Below, piece by piece: positions 4,651 to 61,159 of a stretch of DNA of 64,000 nucleotides. Numbering within the stretch: position 1 is the first letter of the stretch; the number at the start of each line of letters is the position of its first letter. The notes beneath the pieces were generated by a model, which saw nothing but the letters and a program-made list of their open reading frames with translations, had not been told where the DNA came from and did not search any database. The stretch covers positions 2,816,001 through 2,880,000 of the forward strand of contig CM000207.1 in the NCBI GenBank assembly GCA_000002445.1, read 5' to 3'. The stretch comes from Trypanosoma brucei. Its lineage: Eukaryota. A program made the translations under genes and the position numbers.

Positions 4651-6029
4651 GGAAAAGAACGAGTGAAAGCAAAAAAATGAAAGTACGTTAAACAATTGCA
4701 AGGGGAGTTGAGAGTTTGTGACTGAAAGGAAATGGGACGGATAGTTAGTGGTGGTGGAAGAGCACGAGCATTATTACTCAGGTAAATGCAGAATGTAATG
4801 AAGAGATAAGGATCTGGTGTCATTGCACTTTCATCGAAAGAAATGGCGATGAAAATTATTATCATAGACAAGGATATGACTATGATTTATATGATGGAGT
4901 TGCAGAGTCTAGTGTAAAGGGTAGGTGCAGACACTATGGCACCCACTGAGGCAGTGGTAACAACGAAAGGAAAAGAAAAAAATATGGAGAGCGATAACAG
5001 AATACAAAACAGCACAGTACTGAAGAAAATTATACATCAAGAGTTCTAGATGGTATCCAGTCTTTTTTTCAAAAATGTATCGATGCTAAGGCGGAGATGA
5101 TGTTGGAGACCATTATTTTTAATCTGATGGTGTATCGTAAAATGCGGTTAAGAAGAGGAAAAAGAAAAAATCATGAGTAGGAGAAAACTATTAAACGGCT
5201 TAGGTAAGTGTGAAGCAATGTTATAGTCTTATACCATGATATATAGTAATAATGTCCAACATTTGTGGAAAATATATAACATTTTTGGAAGGCAACTTTT
5301 GACACTATGAAAACTAACAGTTTTCTGGTACAAAAAAATGATAAAAACGTAAAAGTTTCTGAACAAAGCGAATGTATAACACTGTAGTGGAACTTTATGA
5401 AACCGAAAGAATTATCAGAAACACTTTCCCTCCTCCGTTCTGGTTGAAGGAAGAGCCACTAACACGATTTGAACACAAAGTAATTTATTTAAAAGTCGTC
5501 GGCGACACGCAGATAAAGGAACGTATTTACAGAGAATGACCAGAAAGGAAGATAGTTCGCGGCATAAATTATTCAGTCTTAGCTGAGACAAAATAACACA
5601 AAATGAATGAAATACACAAAACTTTACTTATTTTCTGTAAAAGAAGAGACAGTACTTGGGTATTTCTCAAGTCGTATCTATAAAAGTCTAGTTAGCAGTA
5701 ATTAAAGAAGTTTATAAATCATACGATTTGAATTTTCAGGCATATTTCGAAGCGCAGTATTATAAATGATAGAAGGGGTGAATTTAGAAGTTAATGTATG
5801 CAATTAGAGAGAAATGTAGTAAACTCTAACTTGAAATTTTGAGTGGAAAATCTGTAGCCTAACTGCGTACTTTTTTTTCAAACTTCGTAAGCACAGAAAA
5901 GTAAACTGCAGCACATTACACAAATCGAAAAATTAAACGGGTAGCGAACCTGTTTGCGACAGAAAAAAAGCAGACTGACAGATAATACGATCGTAATTAT
6001 AGAAGAAAAGATTTAATGTAAACATAACA

Positions 6030-14458: not shown

Positions 14459-14520
14459 CCATCCATAGTGTCTTGAAGACCCAACCCGAAAGCGTGCCAG
14501 TGCCGTTTCTTCTTCCCTCG

Positions 14521-20290: not shown

Positions 20291-22169
20291 TAAGCCGCTA
20301 GTGGTTGTGGCTTCTAGCGTTGTCCTGTTGTGGTGTTGGTGAACAGAAAATGTGGACCCTGTTTGAGTCGTTAACTAGAGTGCTCGTCGCAGATAGTGCC
20401 GGCATCGATCCCCGCGGACGGCAAGTATTTAGCTTACACCAAGGATGGATCTGCCTCAACGTGGCGCTATGGTCTAGTACCAGAAGAGAAATAGGCTGGG
20501 AAGCCAAATGTTCCATCCAAACGGCGGCCGCAACACCAGATATGGTGCGACCGCTCCGTGGGGAGAGAACCATTACTTAGTGTTCCACCACGGTTCAGCA
20601 CCCTGATCAGGTGGGGGAACGAAAATCCCTGATACAACCTCTGTCCGAGGAGGCAGATAGATATGGTAAACATGGTTCAGACGCAACGTGTCGGGGATCA
20701 AATGGGCGTCAAATGGAAGACCGTACCCCTTGACACGCACACATGCGGTCGCCCACATGTTGGTGTCAATTCTCAAAAAAAAACAGGGTCTTTTAGTGTG
20801 TAGGAATGACAATCTCCAGTGTGGAGTCTCACACTACCACGTTCTAGTGGCGTGGTGTGCGTAAATGCATTTCCTTTTTACCCTCTGGTGGACTGGCTGC
20901 GTGGTCCTGACGGTTGCACGAGGGAAAAAAAAAATTTTTACTGCCGCTTTTTCTTTTTGTTTTAGGTTTGTTGTTAATTCTCTAATTTCGGAAATTATTG
21001 CTTCCTTTCTTGGATGCCGCCTCTTATGTGTTGCGTTTGACTTGTTTTTTTCTAGATAGAGGTCTGCTTTGGGTTTCAACTTAATAAGCTTATTAATGTT
21101 GCCGGTCCGGTCGGTCAGTAGTTTGACTGCGCGTGCTGGCGCTTTTACTGGAGCTTCGAATAACTTCGCTAGTGCGGTCATTTTCCCTTGAGAGGCGTCC
21201 ACCATCGTCTGCACAAACCGGCGGGATAACATTGATTTCCAGTATACTGATCACGAGTATTATGCAGTGTGCCTTCATAGTCTGCTGTGTTGCTTTAGGT
21301 AAACTATAGATAGTTACTGAAAGAGCCTAAGTTCCTCTGCTTTCTGTTTGTTTTAAAGCTCGCCGATTTCTTGGTTGTTCTGGTGGTCAAGAGTGGCTAT
21401 GAGGGCGAAAACTTTTATGTTTAACACCTGTATGTAGTTGGAAACCCGAAGCCTGATGCCAGCTACGCAAACCACATGTTGTTGGTTTTTTTTGAAATCT
21501 TCCGATTATTTATTTGGGGTTACGGTTGGCTAGAATTCTGAGTGCATGCCGTTTATCCTGCGCTGCTACGCAGAAAAAATTAGAACTCTTTGTAGAATTC
21601 AAAACCGTCTTTACTATCTTCAATAAAATTCCCTCTGCATCATGGTTATACTCCTTCAAAAGTGAAAGCACAAAAACGCCCTATAAAGAATCAGTTAACT
21701 TTTGTCAAACAGCACGTTAGTTTTAGCTTTAAAATTAAAAGGTGGAGCCGCTACCATAACCACTGCTATAGGGTCTACCCCTTTTTGAGTAAAAACGGGG
21801 TATCATCGGCTGAAGATGTATTATTTTTCACTTTTCTGATGTGTATATCGTTTTTTACTCTATGTTTCCTTATTTTCTTCTTTTTCTGCTTCCATCACTC
21901 CGGACAACATACAAAGTTCGTTTGGCCAACATAATGCACTCTGTCCCTCCATCATTGACATTCTCCATCACCTTGTGTATAATAATGACCATATTCGTGT
22001 TAGTGCTTAAAAAATTTAGCATGCTCTATTTCCGTTTCTCTTTTTGTTTTTCTACTTTTCCTTTAATTATATTCCTCCTACTTTCCCACCCAACTCACTC
22101 ACTTACATTGCACACTCGCTATTTTTAAGTCTTTCTGTATTACCTGGACGGAGTTTCTTCACTACTATT

Positions 22170-22499: not shown

Positions 22500-24030
22500 A
22501 TCAAAGCAGCATCCGTACTCATAGAAAATTTCTTATTGAGGAGAAAACAGCCATTTCTGTACTTTTCTCTTTCTTTGTAATCTCCACCCTCTTTTCCCTT
22601 CCTCCATGCACAATTTTTCTCGTCTCCTGTTTTGTCTTTTTCACAAGCGGTCTTATCATTTCCGTGTCTTGCACATCCAGCTGGAGCTGCTCCCTCTTTT
22701 TCTGTCTCTCCTGTTCCTGCTGCTGTGGTTTCTGTTCCTGGTTTAGGCTTGCATTCCTTTTTAGTTTTTTCATATTCGCAAGAATCTGTTGGGCAATGGG
22801 TTTCATTGTTGTTAAAACTTTCACAGACTATCTCCTTTCTGGCGGTGGCCGTTGTCGATTGTACTGGTATTGTTTATGCTGCTGCTTGTCCTTTAGTGTT
22901 TTACTCGTATTCTGCTGCTTTTTAAGCGCTGCCAACTGTTCCTTTAGTCGTATCCGCTTTTGTTTATCTGCTTCGTACAGTTTGTAGGCGCCTGCCGCTT
23001 CTTTTAACTTTTTGATCCATGGCACTTTGTTTAGTCCTCCGTCCGGTCCACTGAAATAGGTGTGGTAGTCAACACAGTTGGCGTCGCTGTCAGTGGAGCT
23101 TACAGAGGTTTCTTTTCCGAGGACGGTTTTTCTATTGAACGGGTCCTGCTGTGCCATTGGTGCGCCTATTTGGGCGATGGCGGCGGATATTTTAGAGTCT
23201 AATTGTTGAACTGGTGCTTTCTCGGGGCATGTGCCGGCAGTCCCTTCTATTCTGTCGTTGGTGCTGTCGCCTTTGGCATATGTGTTGGCGTTCCTTGCTC
23301 CGCAGGCGTTGTCTGTGCCGTCCGCGCAAACACATACTAGGTCATTGCCGATACTCTTGCCGTTTTCTGCGATCGCACAGTCGGTTGCCTTGGTTATTGC
23401 GGTTGCCACCTTTTTGCATGTCTTTGTGGATGCCTCAAATTTGTATTTTGTTTCGGCTCCACACATAGCCTCCTGTAGCGCCGAATTGATTTTTTCTATT
23501 AATCTACGCCGTCCTTTGTAGGAGGTGCTTTTAGCTGTTCATTGATCTGCTGGGAGATGTGAGGTGTTGGATTTATTGCCCGTGCCGCACGCGCCCTCTC
23601 CTCTTTTGATATTGGCCGAGGATTTTCCTTTGCCCAGTTGTTGTCTTTCGCACCTGGTTTTGTGTGTTGTCGCTGTCTTTGCCATTCTTTACATTTTACT
23701 GTCCAATCAAAGTGCTTTTTCTGAGCATCTAGCGTTACCTTCATTTTATCCCACGTTCCTGCTTGTGCTGCAGTGCCAAGCAAGGCGTGTCATTTGTCGT
23801 CTGCTGCACTCATATTATAGTATAGTATATCTATGTAGTCTGTTTCGTCCGGCGGCGTCGTGAAAGCCGAAATGCTGCCGCTCTTGGCTATCTGCCAGAC
23901 GTTGCACAATGCCAGGAAAACATTCTGTGCGTCGCCTGCCGTTCCATGTGCACGCTGTAGCGACTTCGCTGCGATAAGCAATAATATTAATTAAATTCTG
24001 CTTTTTCCCATGTTCAGTGTTGTTAAACAC
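22500..24030 (-). pseudogene. VSG: VSG pseudogene (B-type: …NCVDYHTYFSGPDGG…, …GTWDKM…). C-terminal Cys-rich domain and KDSS-like tail are frameshifted and there is an in-frame stop near the N-terminus.
   Basis: ORFs 23790..23981, 23499..23783, 22828..23466 and 22519..22824 are consecutive VSG segments separated by stops and frameshifts. Confidence 0.75.
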
Positions 24031-24405
24031 TACCTTTCCCTTTCTGATTGTGCTGTTGTTTTATTATTTAACTACCAATAATTGATATGATTGGCTAGAA
24101 AGCCTTTTGAAAATTATAGTCATTGAATCTTGTGCTGTTTTAGGTACGAAATTTGTCGTCTAATCATCATTCGGTGGTTGGACGCGTCTGCATCTGCTTT
24201 TTGGTGGTTGTGAAGCCGTCCCAGCTTGGCGGAGTGGGGTGGTGTGCTTTTATCTTTCTGTGTTTCGTTGAAGTACTTCATTGGCTCTTGTTTGGAGGTA
24301 ATTTGGTAGTGGTGTCGAGGAACCGGAAGATAGATCTTCAAGCTTCTTAGCTATAAACAAATCCCCTTCTTTAAATGTACCATCACAATCAGCCCATAAT
24401 ATATA

Positions 24406-26668
24406 TCACACTTCTCTCCGTCTATTGCATAACTTAAAATTTCCCCCCAGATCATTCAAATTGAAATCCCTTCTTTCTCCCTTCTTGAAGCAAGTAAGGT
24501 TGGATACGATCTTTTTAGAATTTGCCTCCCAGGTTAACTCATGTCCTAGAAAGTGAAGAAACGCAGGTTTTCTGAGCGAAGTTTCGTAAGGAACTGAGAA
24601 AAACTGCTCTTTATAATCCAGACCTATCAGCCCTCCTTGCAAAACGAATCTACTGCTGACATTCTCTTCACGTTCCACACTTCACAACAACAAGGGAATA
24701 TAAATGCTTTTTTGGACCACCATTCGTCAGCCACTGCAAGAACTTTATCGAAGGCGGCTTTAAACCTCTTAAATGCCCGAACTCGTGCTATTAAATTACC
24801 GCTCCAGAGGTATGGCTTCCCTGTGTCGTGAAATTTTAGTAGAGGCGGTAGGACTTTCTCTTCTTCTGTCTTGCTTGTCATCTCAAAAAACCACCGACAA
24901 CGTTCTTTATGTTCTTTGTGATCAGAATAAACTATCAAGTGCAAGCGAGGTTCATAATACTCAGCTGTCGTCATGAATAGAATCGGAGAAATTTGTTTGT
25001 CTTTAACGACACCCTCCTCACTAAATTTATCTTCATTATCATCAGTATTTTGTATAAAATATTTACTGCACTCTCATACTTCTCTTTCCATCAGAAACAA
25101 TAACATAAGATCCGTCAACAGTCATTACAATATTATCATCACTTACATTCTGTCTTTCCAAAAACTCCATAACCCATATAAGCCTTTTTACATGACTATA
25201 CAAACCTCCCATAGCAATTGTAATAATTTCAACATGGCTTAGTTTGGCACTCAATATGAGCCTACACCATTCTTGAGTAACATGAGTTTCAACGACAACG
25301 ACAAACACTCTGAGTTTTCCGTTTAGTCTTTGGAGTTTATGTGTTAGAAGAACTACTAGTAATGTTGAAATGGCGGTAGTATCCTTGGTGATCCTTTTAG
25401 AGGCGGATAAATAAATTCGGAAGGAATGTTGGCGTAGTCAAAGCTGGTACGTCGATAGTTGCATCGTTTTTACGCAGATATCAGTGGCTGATTGTCCATC
25501 TGTTTTTATAAATTTCTCTTTCTTTCTCTCTCTCTCTTATTTTACATTAAGAACGTCCGCGTTAGCATCGAAACTCTGCCCAGCGTCCGTCAATTTTTGT
25601 AAGCTTTTCGGTTGGACGCTTAACTATAGAATTATATTTGTAGCGGCTTTTGAGGTGCTTATGGTCTTCTTCCCTAATCTGATGCAAAACAATAGTTTGT
25701 TCGCTCGTTAAATTAGTTTTGTCTGTAGTGTCTTTCTTCGCATGCATTACATGACGACAATCTTGCATATCCACTGTTAATAAACATTTAAAATATAATT
25801 TTTCCTTATAACTTCTCCAACAATAATATCTTCATTGAGAGCACTAAAATCAATATATGTTGCGAAATTCCTGAATTTAATTTCTGACGTTACTAATTGT
25901 TTCAGAGGTTTATAATCAACAACTTCCCTGACAATATCCCTAGATAGTGTCGATGCATAACCAATGGTGGAAACGTAATTTTATCACTAAAATCTTTAGG
26001 ATAACCAAGAGCTCTCCCCATATTCAACTTCTCTCGTGGAAGTATTTCAAAGTATTGCAGATACAATGGCACCCTCATAAATATATCGTCATTTGCTTTC
26101 ATTATATAGGGATTAGACGGTTTAAATATTTCAACTGCGAATTTGAACCACAAATATGTTTTTCTACTCACAGTGAGTTCTGCTTCCCGTCCCCAATTAC
26201 CAGCATCTCCAATTTTTTATTTGTTGTTGGATTGACATCACATAAAGGTAAAATAATAACATCCTGATTTACATAACCCTCTTTTCCAATAACCTCTCTG
26301 AGTTAAAAATTACTATTTGTATGAGGGGAATGAGCATATACTATAAGCAACTTCCCAGTAAAATTATTTGACTTACGTGCCAATTCATGGTAACTCTAAC
26401 AAGTTTCCCTCTGTAGATTCCTTCTTCTAAATCTCTCATCATTATCTATAGAAGGTATTCCGGCCACAACTAAATAGTCTTCACTTTCCCAAAACTTCCT
26501 CACATCATTCAAGACAAATCTCATACACTCATCTTTAAAAATATCTAGTGAAATAGGATCTCTTTCAAATTTCCTAAACAAGCTGTATAGCGAAACAAAT
26601 AAATTAATCCCCATAATAATAAAAGGTAAACAACTCATTGTTGCAGATATCCTTCTGATATACTTCAT
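24406..26668 (-). pseudogene. Glycosyltransferase pseudogene (trypanosomatid UDP-Gal/UDP-GlcNAc-dependent GT family, beta-1,3-GT-like). N-terminal TM anchor, …IPSIDNDERFRRRNLQRETC… and a DDIF motif, fragmented into at least five ORFs.
   Basis: ORF 26396..26668 shows a signal-anchor MSCLPFIIMGINLFVSLYSLF plus a Galactosyl_T-like block. ORFs 25902..26171, 25063..25308 and 24627..24974 continue in other frames. Confidence 0.6.
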
Positions 26669-27524
26669 AAGATACTTTTACCATACTAATTAAATGTTTT
26701 AATACCTTATACAATCTTAGAAACCATTAAGGAAAGAATTCAGTTGGCACACTACGGTTTTTAGTGTAGCCGTGCTTACATATGTAAACAGTTTCTCGAT
26801 ATTTTTATGATGCTGTTTTTGAAGGATGTCCGTCCAGTGTCTGCAACTTATATTCGGGCGTATACCTGTAGTTTCTGCTAAAGAAGTTCGCTTTAGTGAT
26901 ATATGCTGCCTTACACTATGTGATTACCATTGTACTCACATTATTCAATTTGCATTGTGTAAATTTCTGTTCTGCTAGCAGGCGTTTGGTGCGCCAACAC
27001 ATTTAGAAATTCTAGTAACTTAACTATTTTTCTGTGATATGTAGTCCAATCATCTGAATCATTATGATACTATCATCACCATACTTTTATGAATTACTGC
27101 TACTCTTGTTTCTATCACTATCTATGCTATAGAATCTAGTATTATTTGAGTAAAATATGGAGCACGATTTCTGTTGATGCACTATATTCGTCTGACACGC
27201 GCTCCTGCGTCTCCCATTACTTTACTATCTGCTTTATCTCCTTGTTTTTTTCTGCTGCTTCTACCACAGCAATTGATGTAATAATTTGATATGGCCATAC
27301 ACTTTGCTGTGCCTCTACATGATAATCCCCTCCACCCTTCGTATATGATAATTCCCATCATCATTCTTATATCTGAAACTATGCATGTTCCATTTCCTTT
27401 TTTCTCTGTGGGTTTGTCGTTCTGAAGCTCTTTTCACAACATTCATCCTTCTCTCCCGTTGCCATGGCCCCCTTGCTATTGTATTAGCTAATTCTTTTTT
27501 GACAGGGTATTTACTTCTCACTAT

Positions 27525-29233: not shown

Positions 29234-30660
29234 AACCTGTTTGGTTCCGTAGACTTGAAACTGGTTTGTTTTTTAGTCCCAAGCCGCTGCCGGCGGAGTG
29301 TCTAGCAGTTGCTGAATGTCCTGCGTTATTTAGATATTGTTGCTGTTCATGGTCAATTGTGTTGTCGAGTTTACGTGGAAAAACGGGTATTTATAGGAAT
29401 CTACTATGTTTTTGGCCAGTTGTTACAGAATAAACGTTTCAAAACACTGCTCATTGCCAGTATTCCTGGATTAGGTAGAAAAGCATTCAGTTTAGCCAAA
29501 GAAACTCCATCTTTCAAACCTAAGCTATAGAATTCTATATCTAAAAAATTTATATTCATGGCCGTCGTGTGCTTCTATTTCAGTTTAATACCAGTTGGAT
29601 TGTGAGTTTTCAATGTCGATATAACGGTTCGACTTCTGCTTTACGCATCATCGTGAGTATTTTGCACATCTCTCCTGGTTTTATTACTACTCTCTTTCGT
29701 CTCATATTCGGTAATTGCGGTCCTATCTGCACCCTCTTTCTTTAAAATTTCCTGATACACTCCATCGCAGCCGAATCAGAGTGTATTATTATTTAAATTA
29801 GCCATTCCTTGAAGGAAAGTAATGTCTGATCAGCACACCAATATGGAATTTGTGGAGTATTACTACCAACTTTTTGGACATCCAAGAAAACCCCTCTAAT
29901 TGTTCATGTATACTCCATTTTAAGAAATTTACATGGTTCTATGTCTTCTATTCCTGTCTAAAGTAATCCATTGGTAGTACTTGTTTTGAAATACTATAAA
30001 TAATATCATATTGTTTTCCAAATATGTTGGTCATTATTAGTATATCTGATTAGAATAAGACTTCGACGTAATTTCATGTTTATCCAATCTCTCAGTTTTT
30101 CTCTAAGTTTTCACCACAGAAGACGAGAAGACACCATTATGTTGGAATCAAAAAAAGCCACTATTACTTCTGTTTAAGGTACCTATTTATGTGTAAATTT
30201 TGAAGTAAAATACCCACTCGTATCATTTTATTCTGAACTATTACGCACCAGTTGTTTTACTCTGTACTTTGGTTCTATCTTTTTCATCCTTTGTAGCTGC
30301 TTCTACGTATTCGTTAGTATCTCCATTTTCACTTTTTTTGCGGTTGCTCCTGGTAGTTTCCGTCCCATACATTACATCCTAGCGTGTGATGGCGTCTATG
30401 GCCATCTGTGTGTTTCAAAACAAGCATATTTCTTCTTTATTTTTCTCCTTTTGCGTTTTCTTAAAAAATATTGCTCCTGATCTCTGTCTCTCTGACTCAT
30501 TTTCCTACCCACCCACTCACTCTCATTAAACCATTTCCATTCGCATTTTGGGTGCTTTTCTCTGCATTGTGCTGCTTTCGTTATTCCTTTGCATTTTTTT
30601 TGTTTCTCGTCGTTTTTTTTTTGGAACTTGGGCAGTGACTGTAGTTGTTGTCATCAGTGC

Positions 30661-31848
30661 TCAGGTCAAATCCTGTAATGCTAGTGTTTCGTTCGATATC
30701 AGCCATGCTGCTTCAACTTCGCTTTTAATGGCTTCCAATGCCGTGTGGGCTCTTTTGCTTTCATCCTCTCGTCGTTCTATGGTGTCTGCTACGTGCAGCA
30801 TGTTCGCGACGTATGTTAGTTTGCCAAATTTGTCTGCATTTGAGGTGATCTTGTTGATGTATTTAATACAGAGACCTTTAGCGACACCTGCTTGGCAGCC
30901 CGTGGCTGTGTATGCTTCCAGGTACCCTACGCCGCCGATCATTTTTATAGAGCTGTGGATTCTGTTTACGGCGCTGTGGATTGCCGGCGCTGTCACCTTT
31001 TTGCTTGCTCCGGGGATGCATATTGTTCTTACTTCTGTGAACGCCGTTTTGAGATTCGGTGCCGTTGTGTCCCAGCCTTGGGTATTTGCTCTGTCTTTTC
31101 GGCAAGCCTTCGTCCCTGTGCTCTGCGTCGCGTCAAAGAATAGGCACTGCATCGCGTATGATAGAGATTGTTTACCGTCTACGGTGCGATCGGTGTTGCA
31201 TTGAGCGACGACGCCGTTGCCTTCTCTTACTGCCACGCTGGTGTCGAACGTGCCCTTTCCTGTCTCAACGCCGTAGGCGGCTTCGTTCATTTTTTTTCTT
31301 CAGCTCATCGTTTGAGAGTGTTTTCAGAGTGTTTTGAGTGTCTTTTACAGCCTTTTGGTGCCGCCGCGCCTTGCCTAGGATTTTCTCTATACGGACCTGT
31401 GCCAGCCTGGCAGCTTGCCCGGTTAGCTTTGGGAAACCCGAGGCTGCTATGGATTTGCCTGGCTCATGCTCGTGATTTGTGTTTAATACAGCTGCTTGCC
31501 ATTCGTCCCAGTTGTCCTTCCACTTTTCGTCTGGTTTTAATCCCGCCGACTTTGCTTCGTCCCACGACTGTGGCTTGAAGGTACATTTTGTGAACATGCC
31601 AGACCACGTCTTGGGTGCTAAAGACATGTTGATTGCCTGCAATTTTTAATCTCTATTGTTCCGTCTTCTGAGCTGACATCGTCCGGCAGTTTGCCTTCTG
31701 CTAGCTGAAAGAGGTCACAGACCGCTTCAAACACCTCGGCGTTGTCTGCTTCCGCCACATCTCCGGTGGCTGGCCGCCCGAGTACTAAACCCATCAAAAG
31801 TATAATTGTCGCTTGGGCTTTTGTCTTGAGTGCAGCGCATGTATTCAT
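30661..31848 (-). pseudogene. VSG: VSG fragment: N-terminal domain only. Signal peptide MNTCAALKTKAQATIILLMGLVLG…, one frameshift, then the ORF ends at 30661 with no C-terminal domain, GPI signal, 3'UTR 16-mer or 70-bp repeat.
   Basis: ORFs 31618..31848, 31265..31642 and 30661..31290 are present. Downstream 30400-30660 lacks Cys-rich coding and shows the CTR-type cactcactc motif instead. Confidence 0.7.
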
Positions 31849-32803
31849 GGTTATTGTCGTGGTTTGCAGTTGACCTAAGAGGCATGTGGCACCAAGAAAA
31901 AGAGTTGGGTGAGTTATATCCCCAATTTCGTGACAACCAAAATAAAAAATTGTCGTTTATTGCAGGAAGTTCTTGTGCTTTGGTATCTAGTGGTGGATAC
32001 CTGTCTGTGTCCACGGTATGAAACTTTGTGTGTTTATGAATAAAAGTGGTTCGTTATGTTTATGGCAGTCGTCTTGTTTCTAGCTTGGTTCCTGTCTTCC
32101 TTCCAAAAAAAAACAAACATAGAAACACCGCTTTGTTGATGTTTTGTTATATCACCACGGAGAGCAGACAGACATCATTAAACATGAGCTTTGTTGCGCA
32201 TATGCAAACATATTTAACTCATGTAAATGTCGATTTCACGATAGAACTATACGGTTACCTTGACAAAATTTTAATGGAAACTTTTTTGTGCAAGTTTCCA
32301 AAAAAGTTAAAAACTTTTCAGCCCATATCCTCCTGCATGTATTTCTTCTATTTTGACGTTTAAAACTTCGGATCATTTCTTCTTTAACCACAACTTACTT
32401 CTATCCGGTAAATTCAAACAGTATGTTTTGTTATTACTCTTATTTGGTTGTAATTCACTTTACAGACTGGAAATATTACCAGGTGGCATTGCTGCTTTTC
32501 ACGGGTGCAGCTGCTTCCTTTTATTTGTCATGCATCCTGAATGCTTTTAGGTCGGTTGCAATTAACCCTCAGTAATTTTGTCCAACTTGTAATCTTTGCT
32601 TCGCCTTTAAATCCTTTGTTCGCTGCAGTAAAGTTTTTTCGTCTCTGGTCCTTATATTAATTGTTAATTCTTTGAATGCAGTTGATTTCTCACCCGCATA
32701 GAAGTATGGAATATGTAGATTACTATTAGAAACTTCTTCCACCTTATATAAAGCTCTGATAAAGGTTTATATTTGTGCTACTATAAGCATTTTTCTAGAG
32801 TTT

Positions 32804-32830
32804 TTTCTCTCTCTCTCTCTCTCTCTGCTT
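32804..32830. repeat. (CT)n microsatellite
   Basis: Sequence tctctctctctctctctctctctctc. Confidence 0.9.
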
Positions 32831-33457
32831 TTCCTGTTCACAGTAATTCATTAGTAGTCCTTATTTTAAATTTCTTACAAATAATAACATATTGGCGCAC
32901 AATAGTGCTAGAAATTATAACTAATTCTGATAAAGAAAAGAGTTTGACATTATTTCGTACTTACTCAATCCTTTCTAATATTTATGCTTTTTCTTCTTAT
33001 TGCTTACAGCTTGATATTAGAAGCCGAAAACAGATTTAAAAATACAGTCTCAACCATCATCTGCACAGAACCTTATATCCAGACCTTAGTGAAATGCTGA
33101 GTATCATCAGCAACTTCTCTTGATGCGTCATTATATTATGCAAGGTTATGATGCGTACCCAGTTGTTTAATTCCATATTTTCTCTCTTTTTTGGCCATTT
33201 ATTGTGCTTTTTAAAAATTCCATAGCAATTTCATATGCATTTTACACTGCATATGTCTCTCCCTTATTGTTTCTTCAGAATATTCTCGTGTATGATGATA
33301 CCCATCTTATGTTTCTTGAAACTGTGCGTATTCAATTTAGTTTTTTTTCTGTTCATATCTCATACACTCCTTCAAGCACAATAATTTAATTACATTGCAC
33401 CATTGACGTATATTTCAGAGCCTTAGCTCTCATATTCATTTAGTCTTCACCAAACGT

Positions 33458-33530
33458 ATTATATTAATGTATGCACAGACTCACAACACTCTCCTATCAA
33501 AATCATTATTATCATAATTATTATTAATAT
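33458..33530 (-). repeat. 70-bp repeat (1 copy)
   Basis: Sequence ttatattaatgtatgcacagactcacaacactctcctatcaaaatcattattatcataattattatta. Confidence 0.8.
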
Positions 33531-35324: not shown

Positions 35325-37249
35325 TTTTTTTTCTTATGCCTACGAAGATCAGCTGTGTGGGCGCAGCGCAGTTGCTTGACAGTGCGGTCTTGGCAAACAA
35401 AAAAAGGATATTTTGGTTTGGCCTATTGGAAGTTGCTGAAGTATGGCTATTGCTGCTGCGACTACCGAGCTAACAGATACACATGATCGCTTTTCTGCTG
35501 TTGCTGACCAAAATAACACAAAGTATCCCACAGTTTTCATGATCTTTCTGTACTGTTCTATTTCCTCCTCTACTATAAATTATACCGGGAAACTATATTA
35601 TTTGTTGTATGTCGAACTTACTGGTTAACACTATGTTTCTTCTTCCGATTATAAACCACAGTTAAAAACATCCACACATTAGCATCTATCCATTTTATAA
35701 TGCCTTGTAGATCACAATCCGTCTTTTTTCTTTGCATCACGTATTTTTTCCTTCTAATCTTTGATGTACAGTAGCTTATTCGGTCTTTTATAGTGTTTTT
35801 TTCATACTTCTTTATCTATAATAATTTGTACTTCTGCTGATAATGTAGCAGGTCCATTAATAATGTACACTGCACTGTTTTTACATAATTTTCTCTCCAC
35901 TTCCTTGCGAATCATGATCCCCATCATCACATTTGTGTTTGCGGATGCAAATTTTCCATTTCCATTTCTAAATCTTCAAACTAATTACAATATAAAAATT
36001 ATCACTTTGTTTCGTTGAGGTTTTCATATGTTCAACTTGAGTAAGTGTTGTATTTAGTGTAGAAAAAACATGTGCAAAATGACAAATGTATGGTCTAAAA
36101 TTATCGCATACGACTGTACATTAAATTATAAGTTTCTTGTCTATTTATATCTATCAGATCTATCTCGTTCATCCGAAATTTTAATTCTATAAATCTTGAA
36201 AATACAGCAGATATTTTACTCCTTAAAATTCAAATTTTATGGCTTACAATCTGTGCTATATGGCGGTTCCTTTGTAGTGGTGCATCCAGCTTCTGAAATT
36301 ATATAACTTTTTTCTTTTTTATTCTTATGCTCGACCTTACGCCAATTTTCTTCACAATCTACCTCATTTTAGGTTGTTTGCACTTCAGAGACTGTGCTTT
36401 TGGATTCCATTAAAGTTTTTTCAACTTTTCTGTCGAATTATTTGCCACGTTAGCACTGTACGATTGAAAGCACTTATATGAAATGTGCGTTCTTCAAATG
36501 TACTTATTTTTTCCTCTTGGCGAGTTTTGAATTAATGTAGTTTTGCTACTATTGCTCCCTGCTTCAATAAAGCTGCTATAATGTTTCACATATATTTTAT
36601 TTTAAGCATCCTTTACCAATATATCTTTTTTCTGTCTACGGTTATCAAATAGTAGTCCTCATTTTAATATCTATCTCTCAATAATATTATATCGTTTGCG
36701 ACAAATGTAGGTGGTTGTTACTATATGTGATGGGGCAGTTTCGACATTACTTTATTCCTATTCGATCACCTCCACTGTCTCCTACTTCTTCTTGGCATTG
36801 TAATCCACCACAATATTGAAAACCGCATTCTACCATCTCTACAGTGGAGTCTATCCACATCTCTGTCTAATACGGAGCGCAACTTCTCCTCCTAATGTAT
36901 CGTTTTCTCCTATGTTGTGCTATTGTGCATCCAGTTGTTTTCTTCTTAGTTTTCTTTCCTTCTTTTTACTCTTATATCGGTTTCTTCTGCAGATGATATA
37001 GGGAATCTATTAGACCTTTAAAATAGATACTGTCACCTCCATCATCTTTTAATTTTGATTTCCATCATTAAGTTTATCTTTTAGATCTGCGCATTACATC
37101 CCTCACCCCTTCTCCATCTCTTTCCTTTAATAACAAACCCCCTTTCTGTATAATACTCACTTTTCAACTGACTCCCTTAGCTCTATTGTTCTCCTTTCAT
37201 TTATTTAAGTTCTTCTACTTGGTCATTCTATTTAGTCCTCACTACAACC

Positions 37250-37340
37250 TCTGTCATAATATTCGTATATGCACACACTCACAACACTCTTCTATCATCA
37301 TTATTATCATTATTATCATTACTATTATTATTATTGCTGC
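37250..37340 (-). repeat. 70-bp repeat (about 1.3 copies)
   Basis: Sequence cataatattcgtatatgcacacactcacaacactcttctatcatcattattatcattattatcattactattattattattg. Confidence 0.85.
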
Positions 37341-40811: not shown

Positions 40812-40880
40812 TATTATTATAATATTCGTATATACACACTCACAACACTGTCCTATCAATATTATTACTATTGCAACCCT
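40812..40880 (-). repeat. 70-bp repeat (1 copy)
   Basis: Sequence ctattattataatattcgtatatacacactcacaacactgtcctatcaatattattactattg. Confidence 0.85.
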
Positions 40881-41145
40881 AATTAATATCTATAAAATAA
40901 ACCATGTAACAAATTAGTAAATATTAGAATAATACTCAATGTGAGTACCCTATAAACTTAGTACATTTTATCTACATGCCAAATTTATATGAAAATCACA
41001 TATATTTCAATTTTTGATATTACTTTATTTTCAGTTTTTTTTGCAAATTTTGAGGAGATTTTGCAAAAGTGTTAAAAAACATCAAAAAAATTTATAAATT
41101 TCATAAGTATTCACAAAATTGAGCAAACCCCTTCCTGAAACATTA

Positions 41146-42459: not shown

Positions 42460-43969
42460 GCATTTCTCGTGTTTTTTTCAGTTTCGTGAAAGGCGTTGAC
42501 TGATAGTGTTACGAGCACCGCTGAAAACACCCGTTGTTGATATCGTCTTCAACATCTTTGGTCCGCTGCGAAACCATACCCATGAGGCATAAAGAAGGGT
42601 TAATTAGTTTTAAGTGTACAGGTTTGACCGTAACCACTCTTTGTTGTTTTTGTGTTCTAGTCGGGTATGGACCGGATTTTATAACAATGACATATGGCTC
42701 TTGGTTAAAAGCAAACTCCCTTATAAAGATTTTGACAATTTTATCGTTGTTGATTTATTTGGCTACTTTCTGGAACAGTTTTATTAGATCTTTATTTGCT
42801 CCAGTCTGCTGGCGGTATATAATAGGATCTACGGTCGTTTCCTCATTTATTATATTTTAGTAAAAATGACGAAGTCTACTTTCAAAAACTACCACTTTTA
42901 AATCACAATCTTTATCAGTGTACATCTAAAACAATTAAAATTTATGATCGTTTTCCGCTTTTATCTTTGCACAAGCCTCTGTCTGTGGGAGTACTTCAGT
43001 GACGATACAACTCCACCGCCTCTGCTGTACGCATAGCCTTGATCAATTCATGGTATTGTACTGTGTGCACTTCCTTTCTTATGTTTTCATCAGGCAAGTG
43101 GAGCTCTGACTACACTCTTTTGTTTTGAAGTTTCTTGAGACGGTCCATCAAAGCCTCATCATCGTATATTCTTATATGAGTTATCCGGTATTTTGAGGCT
43201 GCTATGATTATACAGTGAGTCAGTAGTGGAGAGTCGGAGCATTATTTGAATCTTTCTGTACTTCATAAAGGTCTCTATTGTCCACATATATACTATTTTA
43301 AGAACCTACCGTCTTTATTGTTCTTTTTTGATCCATAGTATTCCGTTAGTACTCCTCGTTTTTAAATCTTTATCCAAGCAATATTATATTGTGGTACAAT
43401 AAATGTTGATTATTATTCTTATATCTTGTGAGAAGATTGCAACATCATTTTGAAGCTAAATACTCTCTTCTTTCTCCTGCTTACATTTTTTACTCATCTT
43501 TTTAACAGGTGGATATTAGGATCTACTATCAGATTTTAAACAACAGTTTTCTCGAACTTCACTGCTGCACCCATTGGTTTATGAGTAAAGCAGAGAGCAT
43601 CATCTCCTGATGTATTATTTTTTTTAGTGATGTACTGTCTTGCATCCTGTCACCACATTCTGTATTTTTTGTTCCTTGTCTTTACTTTTCTGCCACTTTT
43701 TTTGGATAACGTAGACAACTTATTTCGCCTGTAAACTGCATTGTGTCCCTTTATTATTGTCCCATCCCTCATATTAACCTATATGATGATTTCCCTTTTT
43801 ATGTATTAATTCGAAAACGCGAACATTTAATCTCCGTCTTTCTCTTCTTTTTTGCGCCCCCTTTAATAATAATATTACTCGTCCACTCTTTCACAGACTT
43901 CTTTACTTACTCCTTGTGTGCCCTTACCATATCTTTACTTCTTCTTTTCTGTACATTCATTTAGTATTT

Positions 43970-46523: not shown

Positions 46524-47647
46524 CGCAGTCGCTTCACTGAGTTAGTGAGGATTCCGTTCTTCGTTTGTCTGGGTTGGAACTCTAGTTGTCCTCAGGTTGA
46601 CCTTTGACGGTTATATTTGCATAAAAATTGCGGTGATTGAAGTTTTAATCTTGTAAAGGATCTCACATACCTGGTTTTTAGAGTTTGTTCAGCCTCAGTG
46701 CTTTGGTTTTTGGGTTTCGCGCTGCAACCTGCACATTAAACTCGTAGTGTAAGGTTTTGGAACTGTGTCATCTTTTAGGGCATAAACGGATTAAACGAGT
46801 TTATAACATCATAAACATAATGAGAAGGGGGAAGGATTTCAATAAACGACTTTTTTGTTCAAATTTTCCATCTATAATTCCAATATATATCGGATTATAT
46901 CTATGTCCATCATCTAGTTTCGTTCCATTCAAGTGACGTACTTCTTTAAGATACATCGAATATTTTTATACCTTAAAATTAGAAGCTTATGTCTTGTCTT
47001 TGCATATAATTAGCGACAATTCTCCAGTCCACGCCGCTGTAGTAACCAGAAAACTTCTTTTTTGTCATGGAAGCAATTGAAATTTGCTTTGGTTTTGCAT
47101 TATGAGTTCTTTCGTTTTTTGTCTAAGTTCAATGCTCTGAAAATTTGGTCCTGAAACTTCTTTTACCTTTGCGTTTGTTTTTTAGAAACATAACTATATT
47201 TCACCATTTGTAACCGCTTTCATATACATCACTCGTTTCCTGAAAACTATTAGCTTCAGTCTAGCATACCAATATGGAATTGGAGGCATATTCCCATTGA
47301 TTCTTTACGCTTCATAGAGATCCTTCATTTGGCCGTATAGAATGTTTATTTTTCTGTTAACTGTATGTTTCCATTGTGCTTTGTTCATAAGCTTATCCTT
47401 TCTGTATCGCTGTATAGAACATATTATATACATTTTTCAGTTGTTTGCGTTGTGCATCTTCATGATGAGTGTTTGTTCATTACTTAGTTTGATACCGCGT
47501 GTAATCCATCTCTATTCGTAAAATTTCTTTTATAATAGTATTTCTTGTTGCTCCTGCAAATTTTTCTTCAAACGCTTAATTTCATTGCATCCTTGCAATT
47601 GTTTTAAGTAAATCTATTATCGCAGTGTATCTATTGTTCAACGTCAC

Positions 47648-53140: not shown

Positions 53141-54699
53141 TGATTTACTAGTGGAACTGTTAGGTAACCTTTGTTGTTATAGCATAAAGAAGATTTAAAA
53201 TTTCAGCTGTACGGGTTAATTAGTGACAAAGATTATTCCCTTCAATTCGGCTTTGTACCGTCGGCTGTTCCTGTGAATTGACCATTGAGTGAACACAATG
53301 CTAAAGTCTTTGTGAAGCACCACACTCATAGTCTACTTATTAAATTTTATTTCTTCTTAATACAAAGTCTGAGATAGAGACCTCTTTCCTTTTTTCGTTC
53401 GTTCAATGCCATCTTGAGTCGGATGTTGTCTGTTTTGCTTTCATTTATTGAGAGTATCACTAGTTTGGACCGCTAAGAATTTAGATTGGTCGTAAGTGTT
53501 TGTGGTTGTGTTGTCACGTTAGTGACACAAAAAGCACTTAAGTTAACAGGAAAATATCCACTTTCAGTTCCATGTTAATTCTCTATATATCTATATCCAA
53601 GAAAAAGTTTAACATCTTTTTTTCTTACACTCTGTTATGATCTACTATTCCGCAGGATACTCTTTTACTTGGAATTACTAGATAACGTTGGTGCTTCTCT
53701 CGGACACGATTGGTTGTCTGTTGCTTGCCTGCAGCACTTGTCAGTGTATTTCGCCATTATTTAAGGCTGCACAATTTGGAGGCCGAATATAGGTTGCTTG
53801 CCGACATTACGTTGTTAATATGCTCTGCTGCCCCTTTTTCAGAGACCACTTTTATATGGAGTACACGTTACTTGAAAGGTCTTGAATCCTGTACGGTATA
53901 TCCTTACGAAATTGTAGGAGAATTACAATTTATTATCTCTATTTCATAGAGATTACCTGCTTGCTCATATACGCACCATTTAAAGAAGTACGCCTATTTT
54001 TATTCATCTCTTTCTTTCTATGCTAATCCATTAGTGGTTCTGGTAGTAAAATGTTCCCTCCCATATTATTATATTGTTGCCAACAGATATTGGCCACTGT
54101 TAATATATCTTATGATAAAAATGTTGCATCATCATTTCACTTTTAATCAATCCATTCATCCTGCTTTTGTTCGCACTCTTTCTTCTGCTTTTTCGCCTTG
54201 TTTATAGCTGTATATTACGGTTTGCCGTCCAATAAACAAACGAAATCAGCCTCTTCATCTCTGTAGTGGCATCTATGAATTTAAAATCAAATACTGGGCA
54301 CAATTGGATCCTTTTGACTGTGTTATCTACTTTTCACTGTCATTTCACGGCTATTTTATTGTTTCATTTTGCATTTTTTTTCTTCGTCTTTATCTTCTGT
54401 CACTGCTTTTGTAGATGATATAGCACTCCACTTCCATTGTACACTAGACTCTTTGTCTCTCTCATATACACTCCATAATTTCCTTGTTTATGATTAGTTC
54501 AGTCTTCATGTTTGTATTTGAAACCGTACATATTCGATTTTTCTTTCTTTAATTCTTTTTCTCTCTCATATTTTTTGTTTTTCCTCGTATATTGTTCCTC
54601 TTACTCTCTTACACCCGCCGCCACTAACTCATTCACTTACTAGCTTTCCAACCTTAGAATTAGAGAAAATGCCTATATTTTGACTCCATACTCTCTCCT

Positions 54700-59323: not shown

Positions 59324-61159
59324 TGTGAGTTTGTGTCGGAAAGAAAGGTCGCCAAGAACGTTATGTGATGTTACGTCGAGCTGTGTTGCTTGGCCGCGGT
59401 CTTTTTGGTCTTTTGGAGGTCATATTATTGCAATTCGAGTGGTCGACTTCTGAAAATTCAGGCTTGGTTTCTTAAAAATATGGTGACCATAAATCATTGG
59501 TGAATTTATAGAATTAAACCCAAAACAACATTGTTTCCTTTACTGATTTTCCTCTCCACTCCCTCTATCGGCTTTTATTTCAAGCATTTTTGATTTACAG
59601 CAGTTCCAGTTAACACCACGATGGAGAAAGGTTCTACAGTCACCATTGCTCTCAGTACAAGTTTTGAAACTATTTTGTCTGCTTCTGTCACCTATCGCTG
59701 ACTAAAGTTCAGTTTTTATCAATTAACTGCGTCACCAATTTCTTATTGGCATGGAATTAATGCGCTACTGCCGGTTCCAATATCGCCGTTAGTTTTACTT
59801 CATAGATTGTTTTGGTTTTTGAATTTCCTTTGTCTGCATATAATCTTGTTGTCATGAGTGAAAATTCCGCTTGAATCTTTTTGATAAGCTGCGCCATCTT
59901 ATGGTAGAAATGATTATTGGAATGTAACAGCTTACTTTCTAGTAAGAACAACGCTAGCTCCATTTATAAATTCCAAGCCGCTCTTTTTTCATCATCATTA
60001 AAAATTCTACCTATGCCCCAACATTCCAGTCCCGTTGCTGCAACTCATTGAAAAACTTTCCACATATAAATTTCAATGGTTATAGCTGTTAGTGTGTTCT
60101 ATTTTATACAGTTTTGTTCTTGTGTTGACACTGCTGGCGTAACGATTTAACGACGATCTCTTTCAGGGAAGAGATTCTTTATTTGTTTCTGTTTCAGATT
60201 AAGCTGCTCTTTGTTTCACCGACGCTTAAGACAAGGTAATGTTGGAAACAAATATGCTTTTCTCGCCCATTTTGTTTTGTTAAAACTGGTGTTGGTTTTA
60301 AATCAGAGACAAATCTTATGTTAATTACTCTCTCATTTAGAAGTCTGAACGTCTCGCTAGTGCACCAAGCCAACGTTAGTGATCTTTCTTTGTTAACTCC
60401 TCTCCACTTCATATATTTTCTCCACAGCTTCATATGTGTTTTATTTCAAGTACTTTCCTTGTATTCATTGTCCTTGTGCTGTTTATAGAAATCAATTAGA
60501 AGTTTTCATTCTATTCATTCCCCCGATAAATATTATATTGTTTCCTACAAATACTGGTCATTATTACTATGTCCAATGAGAAGACTTCATAGTTACTTGA
60601 AACTTGCACAACACCTCTTACGCCTGTTTCTATTCCTTCCAATTCTTCTTCACAGCTATATATTAGGACTCTGCATCAGATAAAAGGCCCAAGTCAGAAC
60701 CATCGGTGTTGCATACACCCGTTTTTCAGGAAAAATTGGGCCATCATTGACTCTTTATCTTCTTATTACTCCTGGTTTATCATTCTCCCCTGTCCTTTGC
60801 TATTGTGCATCCAGTTGGTTAGTTCCGTATCTTCTTTGCTTCATCTGCCGCCGCTTCTCCAGACAACAATACGAGGGTATTTGGTCTGTGGACAACGTTC
60901 TTCCCCTCGATAATTGTTCTCCTCCACCATCTTCATATGTAAAATGATTCCCATCGTAATATTTTTGGGTTGGAACTGCGCATATCTCCTCCCCTTGTGT
61001 TTCTCTGTCTCCTTATTTATGTTCTTTCTTTAATAATATTTTTCTTTTTTTTCTTTCCTCTTTCTTCATGTCTTACTTACTTACTCCCATAACGTCCTTA
61101 TCATTACTTCAAATAGTTATATATATGGATAAATCAGTAAGACTTCGTTACAATTTCTA

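What the first reader, a model, noticed from the sequence alone, without database searches (positions are those of the whole stretch)
29960..30070. Conserved roughly 100-bp motif recurring inside the co-transposed regions, about 0.6-0.7 kb VSG-side of the 70-bp repeats
A related sequence recurs at seven sites: 29960-30070, 32840-32960, 36650-36720, 43330-43440, 54020-54110 and 60540-60600 in minus-cassette orientation, and as its reverse complement at 5221-5290 in a plus-strand cassette. The core is TCCATTAGTAGTCCT…TTTTAAAT…AATAATATTATATTGTTT(C/G)C.ACAAAT.(T/C)TGG(T/C)CATTATTA(C/G)TAT…AGAAGACTTC. Orientation tracks the cassette orientation, so it is part of the cassette rather than a random AT-rich repeat. 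A second short motif (C/A-rich, cccacccactcactc / cactaactcattcacttac / cacacactcactcacatac) sits immediately on the VSG side of many 70-bp repeats: 22080-22110, 30490-30530, 40720-40750, 54610-54640 and 61060-61090. These could be recombination or processing signals, such as polypyrimidine or splice-acceptor context on the coding strand, or remnants of a common ancestral CTR.
Basis: seen in the sequence. Interest (0 to 1): 0.5.

Follow-up and report, generated by a model that had tools for sequence, protein, structure and literature searches.

The report
Conserved core of VSG upstream flanks
The recurring ~150-bp motif is real: it is the best-preserved stretch of an old, ~1.1-kb family of related sequences between the 70-bp repeat and the surface-antigen (VSG) gene in about a third of Trypanosoma brucei VSG cassettes, and it gives a modest new handle on a flank usually called "unique", with no function shown.

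Summary
The window is a Trypanosoma brucei TREU927 subtelomeric VSG array. All seven reported sites are real. A profile built only from seven copies in other trypanosome assemblies finds exactly these seven sites (E 5e-13 to 1e-26) and nothing else.

The motif is not a free-standing element. It sits at positions ~494-647 of a ~1.1-kb homologous co-transposed region (CTR) family, present in full in 7 of 16 recognisable CTRs here. It starts 460-540 bp after the 70-bp repeat and lies 0.87-1.3 kb before the VSG start codon. Two length-variable purine tracts bracket it.

It is the most conserved block of that family: pairwise identity 0.61 against 0.49 in the flanks, with no permutation reaching the observed peak. 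All copies are about equally distant, and exact shared runs are at most 15 nt.

It is not a 70-bp repeat, an ingi/RIME piece, an Rfam RNA, a structured RNA or an ORF.

"Remnant of a common ancestral CTR" is supported. A homology-based recombination signal is not. A processing signal remains untested; the only hint is a short polypyrimidine tract plus AG at the motif's 5' edge.

The second, C/A-rich motif is an averagely conserved low-complexity stretch of the proximal CTR.

Interest is modest.

The parts
5192..5338 (+). Motif copy 1 (conserved CTR core), in a plus-strand cassette
   Evidence: nhmmer E 6e-29. An independent profile gives E 7e-16.
29948..30094 (-). Motif copy 2 (the site named in the finding)
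   Evidence: nhmmer E 3e-32. An independent profile gives E 1.4e-26.
32828..32976 (-). Motif copy 3
   Evidence: E 1.2e-15 with the independent profile.
36627..36775 (-). Motif copy 4
   Evidence: E 5e-19 with the independent profile.
43324..43472 (-). Motif copy 5
   Evidence: E 5e-13 with the independent profile.
54008..54160 (-). Motif copy 6
   Evidence: E 2e-19 with the independent profile.
60473..60620 (-). Motif copy 7
   Evidence: E 2e-16 with the independent profile.
4674..5798 (+). Full-length CTR-family copy containing motif 1. Its 70-bp repeat is at 4575-4652 and the VSG ATG at 6630.
   Evidence: CTR profile positions 4-1125, E 1e-204. 70-bp repeat. ATG.
29488..30544 (-). Full-length CTR-family copy containing motif 2. 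No recognisable 70-bp repeat lies upstream.
   Evidence: CTR profile positions 21-1125, E 4e-197. No 70-bp profile hit.
32350..33427 (-). Full-length CTR-family copy containing motif 3. Its 70-bp repeat is at 33440-33525. The B-type VSG pseudogene starts at ~31848.
36146..37222 (-). Full-length CTR-family copy containing motif 4. Its 70-bp repeat is at 37235-37324. The A-type VSG pseudogene has its ATG at 35324.
42872..43942 (-). Full-length CTR-family copy containing motif 5. Its 70-bp repeat is at 43962-44048. The A-type VSG ORF is at 41146-42459.
53538..54682 (-). Full-length CTR-family copy containing motif 6. Its 70-bp repeat is at 54693-54779 and the VSG ATG at ~53135.
59990..61121 (-). 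Full-length CTR-family copy containing motif 7. Its 70-bp repeats are at 61141-61229 and 61224-61292, and the VSG ATG at 59206.
21731..22112 (-). Example of a partial CTR copy holding the proximal modules only (profile positions 35-441) and lacking the motif. Similar partial copies lie at 1323-1483(+), 18370-18614, 27115-27458, 35618-35968, 40558-40741 and 50900-51041.
   Evidence: Partial copies end at profile position ~250 or ~420-470.
46944..47338 (-). Example of a partial CTR copy holding the distal module only (profile positions 685-1082) and lacking the motif. It lies upstream of the intact VSG at 45060-46523. A similar copy is at 12052-12448(+).
54610..54640 (-). Second (C/A-rich on the window + strand) motif, one of the five sites named. 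The others are 22080-22110, 30490-30530, 40720-40750 and 61060-61090. It is a G/T-rich (R)AGT-type stretch on the sense strand at CTR profile positions ~41-80.
   Evidence: conservation equals the CTR mean; weak similarity to the 70-bp core; summed z = 2.3.

Best explanation
**What it is.** The motif is the slowest-evolving, ~150-bp island of a ~1.1-kb family of paralogous VSG 5' flanks, the 70-bp-repeat-proximal part of the co-transposed region (CTR). The family descends from one ancestral cassette flank. It spread with cassette duplication and was later re-assorted with both A-type and B-type VSGs.

**Why it looks discrete.** The island appears as a separate motif because two length-variable purine-rich tracts, (GAA)n / (GA)n-like, bracket it. 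Truncated CTR variants break just outside it.

**How it probably works.** Its substitution rate is roughly two thirds that of the flanking CTR, and this holds in every pairwise comparison. The most likely cause is weak purifying selection on a cis-acting element, not recent gene conversion. Copies share too little exact sequence to serve as a homologous-recombination substrate, so it does not work as one.

**Shown and inferred.**
- Shown: family membership, position, orientation, excess conservation, and the absence of an ORF, a structured RNA or 70-bp-repeat identity.
- Inferred: that the excess conservation reflects selection.
- Speculative, roughly 0.15 each: the nature of the element. One option is a DNA-level docking site in the silent-array 5' flank, for example for ORC1/CDC6 or another chromatin factor. 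The other is a sense-strand polypyrimidine-AG processing site that gives rise to the unstable CTR transcripts.
For: **Source and layout.** The window is a T. b. brucei TREU927 VSG array, shown by Pfam VSG domains, 70-bp repeats and a 100%-identical TREU927 VSG.

**The homology is a whole flank.** Self-BLAST shows 300-1500-bp homology, not 100 bp. The CTR profile matches seven copies over positions ~3-1125 (E 1e-185 to 1e-210), with the motif at positions 494-647.

**It recurs elsewhere.** Seven more motif copies lie in 80 kb of unrelated arrays from two other assemblies. They are in the same orientation and at similar distance wherever a 70-bp repeat is present.

**It is the conservation peak.**
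- In the MAFFT alignment, the best 120-column window has identity 0.60 against a CTR mean of 0.44 (z about 12). None of 5000 column shuffles reaches it.
- The peak falls at the same place in four copies that were not used to define the motif.
- In profile-aligned columns, the motif scores 0.62 and the next best window 0.55. None of 3000 column or block permutations reaches it.

**The pattern fits old divergence with constraint.** Gap-free pairwise identity is 0.61 (range 0.52-0.72) in the motif and 0.49 (0.44-0.54) in the flanks. The pattern is star-like, with no near-identical pair.

**Composition does not explain it.** AT content is 71% in the motif and 64% elsewhere.

**Indels.**
- Gap fraction is 2% in the motif, and 23% and 36% in the two bracketing tracts.
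- Windows with fewer indels than the motif are nevertheless less conserved.

**The family is independent of VSG type.** It occurs with both A-type and B-type VSGs.
Against: - The excess conservation is modest, about 0.10-0.12 in identity.
- Only 11-15 copies were aligned, at a divergence where alignment error in the flanks can depress their apparent identity.
- The permutation nulls ignore phylogeny.
- Both intact VSG genes in the window (2844-4388 and 45060-46523) have CTRs without the motif. About 60% of cassettes lack it. So it is dispensable for a cassette.
- No recognisable signal accounts for the best-conserved AT-rich sub-blocks.
- No expression, binding or genome-wide data could be consulted.
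Confidence: 0.6

Rival explanations
1. Neutral relic. The block has no function. It is simply a higher-complexity stretch between two slippage-prone purine tracts. It aligns better and so looks more conserved, or it sits in a local mutational cold spot.
For: - The motif is dispensable. It is absent from about 60% of CTRs and from both intact VSG cassettes in the window.
- Only about one third of substitutions appear to be removed.
- The flanks are indel-rich, with bracket gap fractions of 23% and 36%.
- No known signal was recognised.
Against: - Windows with fewer indels than the motif, such as alignment columns 1060-1120, are less conserved.
- The peak reappears in independent copies.
- It survives block permutation.
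- Composition differs too little to explain it.
Confidence: 0.3
2. Sense-strand RNA-processing signal. A short polypyrimidine tract plus AG at the motif's 5' edge acts as a cryptic trans-splice acceptor and polyadenylation-coupling site when the cassette sits in an active expression site. It would yield the unstable CTR transcripts.
For: - The most pyrimidine-rich conserved 10-mer of the whole CTR sense strand lies at the motif's 5' edge (Y = 0.89 against a mean of 0.38). In six of the seven window copies the tract at this edge is followed by an AG within 0-6 nt, and by eye an AG also follows the tract in the other aligned copies.
- The pyrimidine tracts upstream of the VSG start codons in this window are also short, 8-21 nt.
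- CTR transcripts exist in the active expression site but are unstable (PMC5698767).
Against: - The tract is only 6-14 nt long.
- The best-conserved columns lie downstream of it, in AT-rich blocks.
- An AG within 12 nt is expected by chance in most sequences of this composition.
- No spliced-leader mapping data were available.
Confidence: 0.15
3. DNA-level protein docking site in the silent-array 5' flank, for example for ORC1/CDC6 or another chromatin or silencing factor.
For: Published ChIP-chip data (PMC3607257):
- 51% of ORC1/CDC6 sites lie in VSG arrays at ~7 kb spacing.
- They are over-represented in the VSG 5' flank.
- ORC1/CDC6 RNAi raises RNA from array intergenic sequence.

Nucleosomes are clearly phased around subtelomeric ORC1 sites (PMC5359979).

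The motif lies in the 5' flank, is 71% AT, and recurs every ~6-11 kb.
Against: - The same study found no consensus binding sequence.
- The 5' flank enrichment is only 53% of sites for 40% of sequence.
- No site coordinates were available to overlay.
- The similarity in spacing may be coincidence.
Confidence: 0.12
4. Upstream region or 5' UTR of an extinct small gene that once lay in the ancestral CTR. The family consensus has a 77-codon open frame starting ~35 nt after the motif.
For: - The consensus is open over CTR profile positions 680-910.
- Copies, including independent ones, keep the frame with 0-3 stops.
- Stop frequency is 3.1% in this frame and 7.7% in the other two.
- Stops are fewer than in a neutral-decay simulation: 35 observed against 48 +/- 6.6 expected, p about 0.02.
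Against: - There is no codon periodicity of conservation.
- Indels are not in multiples of three.
- A similar stop depletion occurs elsewhere in the CTR.
- There is no Pfam hit and no homologue in the word-indexed search.
- The two hits in the 1.8-billion-protein profile search are long multi-stretch proteins. The one inspected is a cysteine-rich repeat protein, so the match is spurious.
Confidence: 0.08
5. Recombination signal. The motif would provide homology or microhomology for alternative upstream conversion boundaries.
For: - Breakpoints of truncated CTR variants cluster just outside the motif, at profile positions ~400-490 and ~680.
- A VSG-to-mid-CTR fusion starts at the motif's 5' edge (L002:3367).
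Against: - Pairwise identity is 52-72% and exact runs are at most 15 nt.
- There are no recent conversion tracts.
- The breakpoints coincide with the variable purine tracts, not with the motif itself.
Confidence: 0.05

Closest known systems
VSG co-transposed region (CTR) / VSG 5' flank of T. brucei cassettes
   Same: - It lies between the 70-bp repeat and the VSG ORF, in the same orientation as the VSG, and is carried with the cassette.
- It sits in the sequence class in which ORC1/CDC6 sites are enriched (PMC3607257).
- CTR manipulation in the active expression site destabilises that site (Davies et al. 1997, as cited in PMC2900300).
   Different: - The literature consulted describes each cassette's CTR as "unique" (PMC2900300).
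- Here about 37% of CTRs (14 of 38 examined) share a ~1.1-kb homologous unit with a conserved 150-bp core. Most others share its first 250-450 bp.
- At 50-60% identity these flanks are still effectively unique for homologous recombination.
70-bp (76-bp) repeats upstream of VSGs
   Same: - Both are cassette-associated, orientation-locked and AT-rich with TAATAAT-like runs.
- Both are conserved across cassettes.
   Different: - A 70-bp-repeat profile does not match the motif.
- The motif lacks the GTGTTGTGAGTGTGTG core.
- It is single-copy per cassette and far less conserved, at ~61% pairwise identity, whereas the 70-bp core is near-identical between cassettes.
Conserved VSG 3' UTR elements (16-mer TGATATATTTTAACAC)
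   Same: Both are short conserved non-coding elements of the cassette flank.
   Different: - They lie on opposite sides of the gene.
- The 16-mer search (up to 2 mismatches) found no match within any motif copy.
- The motif is absent from most cassettes, including the intact ones in this window.
ingi/RIME and other dispersed retroposons
   Same: Both are repeated sequences in subtelomeres. An ingi-type RT/RNase H ORF lies at 14521-16866 in the window.
   Different: - There is no BLAST similarity between any CTR and the 13-18 kb retroposon region.
- CTR translations give no Pfam hit.

Membership tests
VSG co-transposed region (5' flank of a VSG cassette) | Lies between the 70-bp repeat and the VSG ORF, on the VSG-coding strand | tested here: met
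   In six of seven copies the motif starts 460-540 bp downstream of a 70-bp repeat. It lies 865-1303 bp upstream of the VSG start in the six cassettes where a start could be placed. Its orientation follows the cassette. The same holds in L001, L003 and L004.
VSG co-transposed region (5' flank of a VSG cassette) | Copied with the VSG during duplicative transposition | not testable with these tools
   This needs switch-clone or expression-site sequences. Only array loci were retrievable.
70-bp repeat | ~76-bp unit with a (TRR)n run, the GT-rich core GTGTTGTGAGTGTGTG and an AT-rich tail | tested here: not met
   The 70-bp profile finds 16 repeats in the window but gives only E > 40 fragments inside motif copies. 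For the second, C/A-rich motif, similarity to the core is weak (summed z = 2.3; 2 of 13 copies with p < 0.05).
Structured non-coding RNA | Match to a curated family, or a conserved secondary structure with covariation | tested here: not met
   No Rfam match at gathering score in the whole window. RNAalifold predicts no base pairs on either strand for 12 copies.
Protein-coding sequence | Conserved open frame, codon periodicity and detectable homologues | tested here: not met
   Across the motif the longest open stretch has a median of about 100 nt. For the adjacent ORF-like segment there is no periodicity, no Pfam hit and no homologue.
Trans-splice acceptor site | Polypyrimidine tract followed by AG on the transcribed strand | tested here: inconclusive
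   A 6-14 nt pyrimidine tract with an AG 0-6 nt downstream in six of seven window copies sits at the motif's 5' edge. It is the most pyrimidine-rich conserved spot of the CTR, but it is short.
Trans-splice acceptor site | Spliced-leader addition observed at the AG | not testable with these tools
   No RNA-seq data were available.
ingi/RIME retroposon | Sequence similarity to ingi/RIME, or an RT/endonuclease coding remnant | tested here: not met
   No self-BLAST hit between the CTRs and the ingi-type element at ~13-18 kb. No Pfam domain in six-frame CTR consensus translations.
ORC1/CDC6-bound site of VSG arrays | ChIP enrichment of ORC1/CDC6 centred on the element | not testable with these tools
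   Only summary statistics are available (PMC3607257). No site coordinates are held.

The most novel reading that the evidence does not exclude
The conserved AT-rich core is a sequence-preferred docking site for ORC1/CDC6 or an associated silencing or chromatin factor in silent VSG arrays. This would explain why about half of all mapped ORC1/CDC6 sites lie in the arrays, at ~7 kb spacing, mainly in VSG 5' flanks and with phased nucleosomes around them. It would also give the CTR a defined cis element whose loss could underlie the expression-site instability seen when the CTR is manipulated.
Probability: 0.1. Interest if true: 0.7.

Novelty: new member of a known kind. Interest (0 to 1): 0.3.

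Why it matters
The CTR is the least understood part of the VSG cassette. Manipulating it in the active expression site destabilises that site. The papers consulted call it unique to each cassette and say the reason for this is unknown (PMC2900300).

This analysis shows that many CTRs are diverged copies of one ~1.1-kb unit with a reproducibly better-conserved 150-bp core. That gives a concrete target for three kinds of test:
- deletion or scrambling experiments;
- re-analysis of existing ORC1/CDC6, nucleosome and spliced-leader data;
- a marker for tracing how 5' flanks were re-assorted between A-type and B-type VSGs.

If the excess conservation proves to be an alignment or mutational artefact, the finding reduces to ordinary paralogy of cassette flanks.

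Tried and rejected
1. **Motif as a degenerate 70-bp repeat.** I saw a resemblance by eye, but the 70-bp profile gives no significant hit.
2. **Second motif as a relic second 70-bp repeat.** Only weak support, summed z = 2.3.
3. **Known or structured RNA.** No Rfam match and no consensus structure on either strand.
4. **ORF over the motif.** None.
5. **The 77-codon open frame in the consensus just 3' of the motif.**
   - Mild stop depletion.
   - No codon periodicity, and no multiple-of-three bias in indels.
   - No Pfam hit and no homologues.
   - The profile search of 1.84 billion proteins returned two long multi-stretch proteins. The one inspected is a cysteine-rich repeat protein, so the match is spurious.
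6. **Link to the ingi element in the window.** No similarity.
7. **Association with VSG type.** None. The family precedes both A-type and B-type VSGs.
8. **Composition as the cause of the higher identity.** The difference is too small.
9. **Recent gene conversion.** No close pairs.
10. **Retrieving the window's own chromosome.** Three look-ups failed: two with the window's VSG ORFs and one with the 100%-identical database entry. Orthologous and expression-site CTRs therefore could not be examined.
11. **Literature.** Marcello & Barry 2007, the paper most likely to have described 5'-flank conservation, is not held. None of the papers read describes a conserved CTR block.

Full report
**Source and layout.** The window is a subtelomeric VSG array of Trypanosoma brucei brucei TREU927.
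- Long ORFs carry the A-type or B-type VSG domains and the VSG C-terminal domain.
- The ORF at 45060-46523 is 100% identical to a TREU927 VSG.
- The 70-bp-repeat core GTGTTGTGAGTGTGTG and the 3' UTR 16-mer recur throughout.
- Cassettes lie on the + strand up to ~13 kb. An ingi-type RT/RNase H element occupies ~13.6-16.9 kb. Cassettes lie on the - strand from 18 kb onward.

**Check of the observation.**
- All seven sites are real. A profile made from them finds exactly seven copies, at 5192-5338(+), 29948-30094, 32828-32976, 36627-36775, 43324-43472, 54008-54160 and 60473-60620 (all -), with E 1e-28 to 1e-33.
- That test is circular, so I fetched five unrelated array loci from T. b. equiperdum and T. 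equiperdum. They hold seven further copies in 80 kb.
- A profile built from those seven alone recovers the same seven window sites (E 5e-13 to 1e-26). The next best hit has E = 1.5.
- Orientation follows the cassette everywhere.
- The motif starts 460-540 bp after the 70-bp repeat and lies 865-1303 bp before the VSG ATG.

**What it belongs to.**
- The similarity is not confined to ~100 bp. BLAST of the surrounding region, and of the window against itself, shows 0.3-1.5-kb alignments at 57-65% identity between cassette flanks.
- A profile of the whole flank matches seven cassettes over positions ~3-1125 (E 1e-185 to 1e-210). The motif occupies positions ~494-647.
- Nine other CTRs in the window, and 15 in the extra loci, carry only parts of the unit. 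They end at positions ~231-264 or ~399-470, or begin at ~678-686. All but one (L002:3367-3748, below) exclude the motif.
- One copy, L002:3367-3748, begins at position 484. It is fused to a truncated B-type VSG.
- The last 0.3-0.8 kb before each VSG is not shared between cassettes.
- The family precedes both A-type and B-type VSGs. The flank has therefore been re-assorted relative to the coding region.
- Both intact VSGs in the window have motif-less CTRs. An apparently intact 494-aa VSG in L004 has a motif-bearing one.

**Is it more conserved than its surroundings?** Yes, moderately.
- In an 11-copy MAFFT alignment, the best 120-column window sits on the motif. Its identity is 0.60 against a CTR mean of 0.44 (z about 12). 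None of 5000 column shuffles reaches it.
- The four copies not used to define the motif peak at the same place.
- In profile-aligned match columns, the best 150-position window is 507-656, with identity 0.62. The next best window scores 0.55. None of 3000 column or block permutations reaches the observed value.
- Gap-free pairwise identity is 0.61 (0.52-0.72) in the motif and 0.49 (0.44-0.54) in the flanks. All pairs are about equally distant.
- Composition differs little: 71% against 64% AT.
- Two length-variable purine tracts bracket the motif, with gap fractions of 23% and 36% against 2% inside it. This explains why it looks like a discrete element.
- Other windows have fewer indels yet lower identity, so alignment quality alone does not explain the peak.
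- Caveat: the alignment holds few copies at high divergence, and the permutation nulls ignore phylogeny.

**What it is not.**
- It is not a 70-bp repeat.
- It is not related to the ingi element in the window.
- It is not an Rfam family.
- It has no consensus RNA structure on either strand.
- It is not an ORF.
- It cannot be a homologous-recombination substrate. The longest exact run shared by two copies has a median of 9 nt and a maximum of 15 nt, and no pair shows a recent conversion.

**Leads on function.**
- *Processing signal.* The most pyrimidine-rich conserved 10-mer of the entire CTR sense strand is at the motif's 5' edge (consensus GTCTTTTCTCATCAG; Y = 0.89 against a mean of 0.38). An AG follows the tract at this edge within 0-6 nt in six of the seven window copies. 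The pyrimidine tracts upstream of the VSG start codons in this window are also short, 8-21 nt. However, the best-conserved columns are the AT-rich blocks downstream: ATATAGTAATAAT, CAACATTTGT, AACAATATAATATTAT, TTTTAAAAC and ACTACTAATGGATTAC.
- *Relic gene.* The family consensus has a 77-codon open frame about 35 nt after the motif. Stops are mildly depleted in that frame. There is no codon periodicity, no codon-preserving indel pattern, no Pfam match and no credible homologue.
- *Chromatin or ORC docking.* Published ChIP-chip places 51% of ORC1/CDC6 sites in VSG arrays at ~7 kb spacing, over-represented in the VSG 5' flank. Nucleosomes are phased around subtelomeric ORC1 sites (PMC5359979). 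The motif recurs every ~6-11 kb in that flank. This agreement in spacing and location is only suggestive, and I could not test it.

**Second motif.**
- The C/A-rich stretch is G/T-rich on the sense strand, for example GAGTGAGTGGGTGGG and AAGTGAATGAGTTAGT.
- It lies about 100-110 nt after the 70-bp core, at CTR profile positions ~41-80.
- Its conservation equals the CTR mean, at the 39th percentile of 40-column windows.
- Its resemblance to the GT-rich core of a 70-bp repeat is weak (summed z = 2.3).
- It is a low-complexity part of the proximal CTR module, which most cassettes share. It is not a separate signal.

**Comparison with what is known.**
- The papers I could read treat the CTR as unique to each cassette and of unknown purpose (PMC2900300). 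They also describe it as a source of unstable transcripts (PMC5698767).
- None describes a conserved CTR block.
- The paper most likely to have examined cassette flanks genome-wide, Marcello & Barry 2007, is not held. Prior description therefore cannot be excluded.
- At 50-60% identity, these flanks remain effectively "unique" for recombination, so the two views are compatible.

**Verdict.**
- The best-supported reading is a weakly constrained core of an ancestral, modular CTR family.
- A homology-based recombination role is unlikely.
- Processing-signal and protein-docking roles are open and untested.
- Interest is modest. This is a previously unremarked conserved element of a known kind of flank, with a concrete set of tests that existing datasets could settle.

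Noticed in passing
window 5372-5593(+), 32545-32760(-), 53808-53972(-), 47131-47340(-), 29745-29882(-), 12113-12238(+), 60209-60367(-); L001:2156-2344, L003:6597-6809, L004:807-947: Just 3' of the motif, the CTR consensus has a 77-codon open frame (NIYEPLEELYEVERVNSNTPPIPYWFTEETLRPFKERVIHIRVVDD...). Copies keep this frame with 0-3 stops. Stops are mildly depleted, but there is no codon periodicity and no homologue. It could be the relic of an extinct small gene, or chance.
   Followed up: partly
window CTR profile hits and L001-L005: CTRs are modular and nested. Nearly all share the first ~250 bp after the 70-bp repeat, about half extend to ~420-470, and about a third carry the full 1.1 kb. 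The last 0.3-0.8 kb before the VSG is cassette-specific. The breakpoints coincide with variable purine-rich tracts. This looks like a record of past exchanges whose upstream boundary lay inside the CTR.
   Followed up: partly
L002:2114-3748: A B-type VSG ORF is truncated after its N-terminal domain. It is fused directly to mid-CTR sequence, starting at profile position 484, the 5' edge of the motif. The C-terminal domain, 3' UTR, 70-bp repeat and proximal CTR are missing.
   Followed up: partly
window 13032-17916: An ingi-type retroposon (RT plus RNase H ORF at 14521-16866, minus strand) sits at the point where cassette orientation switches from + to -.
   Followed up: no
window 11647-11654(+), 40875-40882(-), 44763-44791: Single telomere-like hexamers (TTAGGGTT) lie immediately upstream of two 70-bp repeats. 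A degenerate AACCCTAACCC run lies downstream of the intact VSG at 45060-46523. These may be traces of a former telomeric location.
   Followed up: no
window 35618-35968: An extra partial CTR copy (profile positions 126-468) lies between the full CTR at 36146-37222 and the VSG start at 35324. It is an internal duplication or insertion within one cassette's flank.
   Followed up: no
window 30544-30700: The cassette holding the site named in the finding has no recognisable 70-bp repeat. The upstream VSG pseudogene ends at ~30661 and the CTR homology begins at 30544.
   Followed up: partly
window 24000-27100: About 2.8 kb of low-GC, non-VSG sequence lies between the truncated CTR at 27115-27458 and the VSG fragment at ~22.8-24.3 kb. 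Its content was not examined.
   Followed up: no
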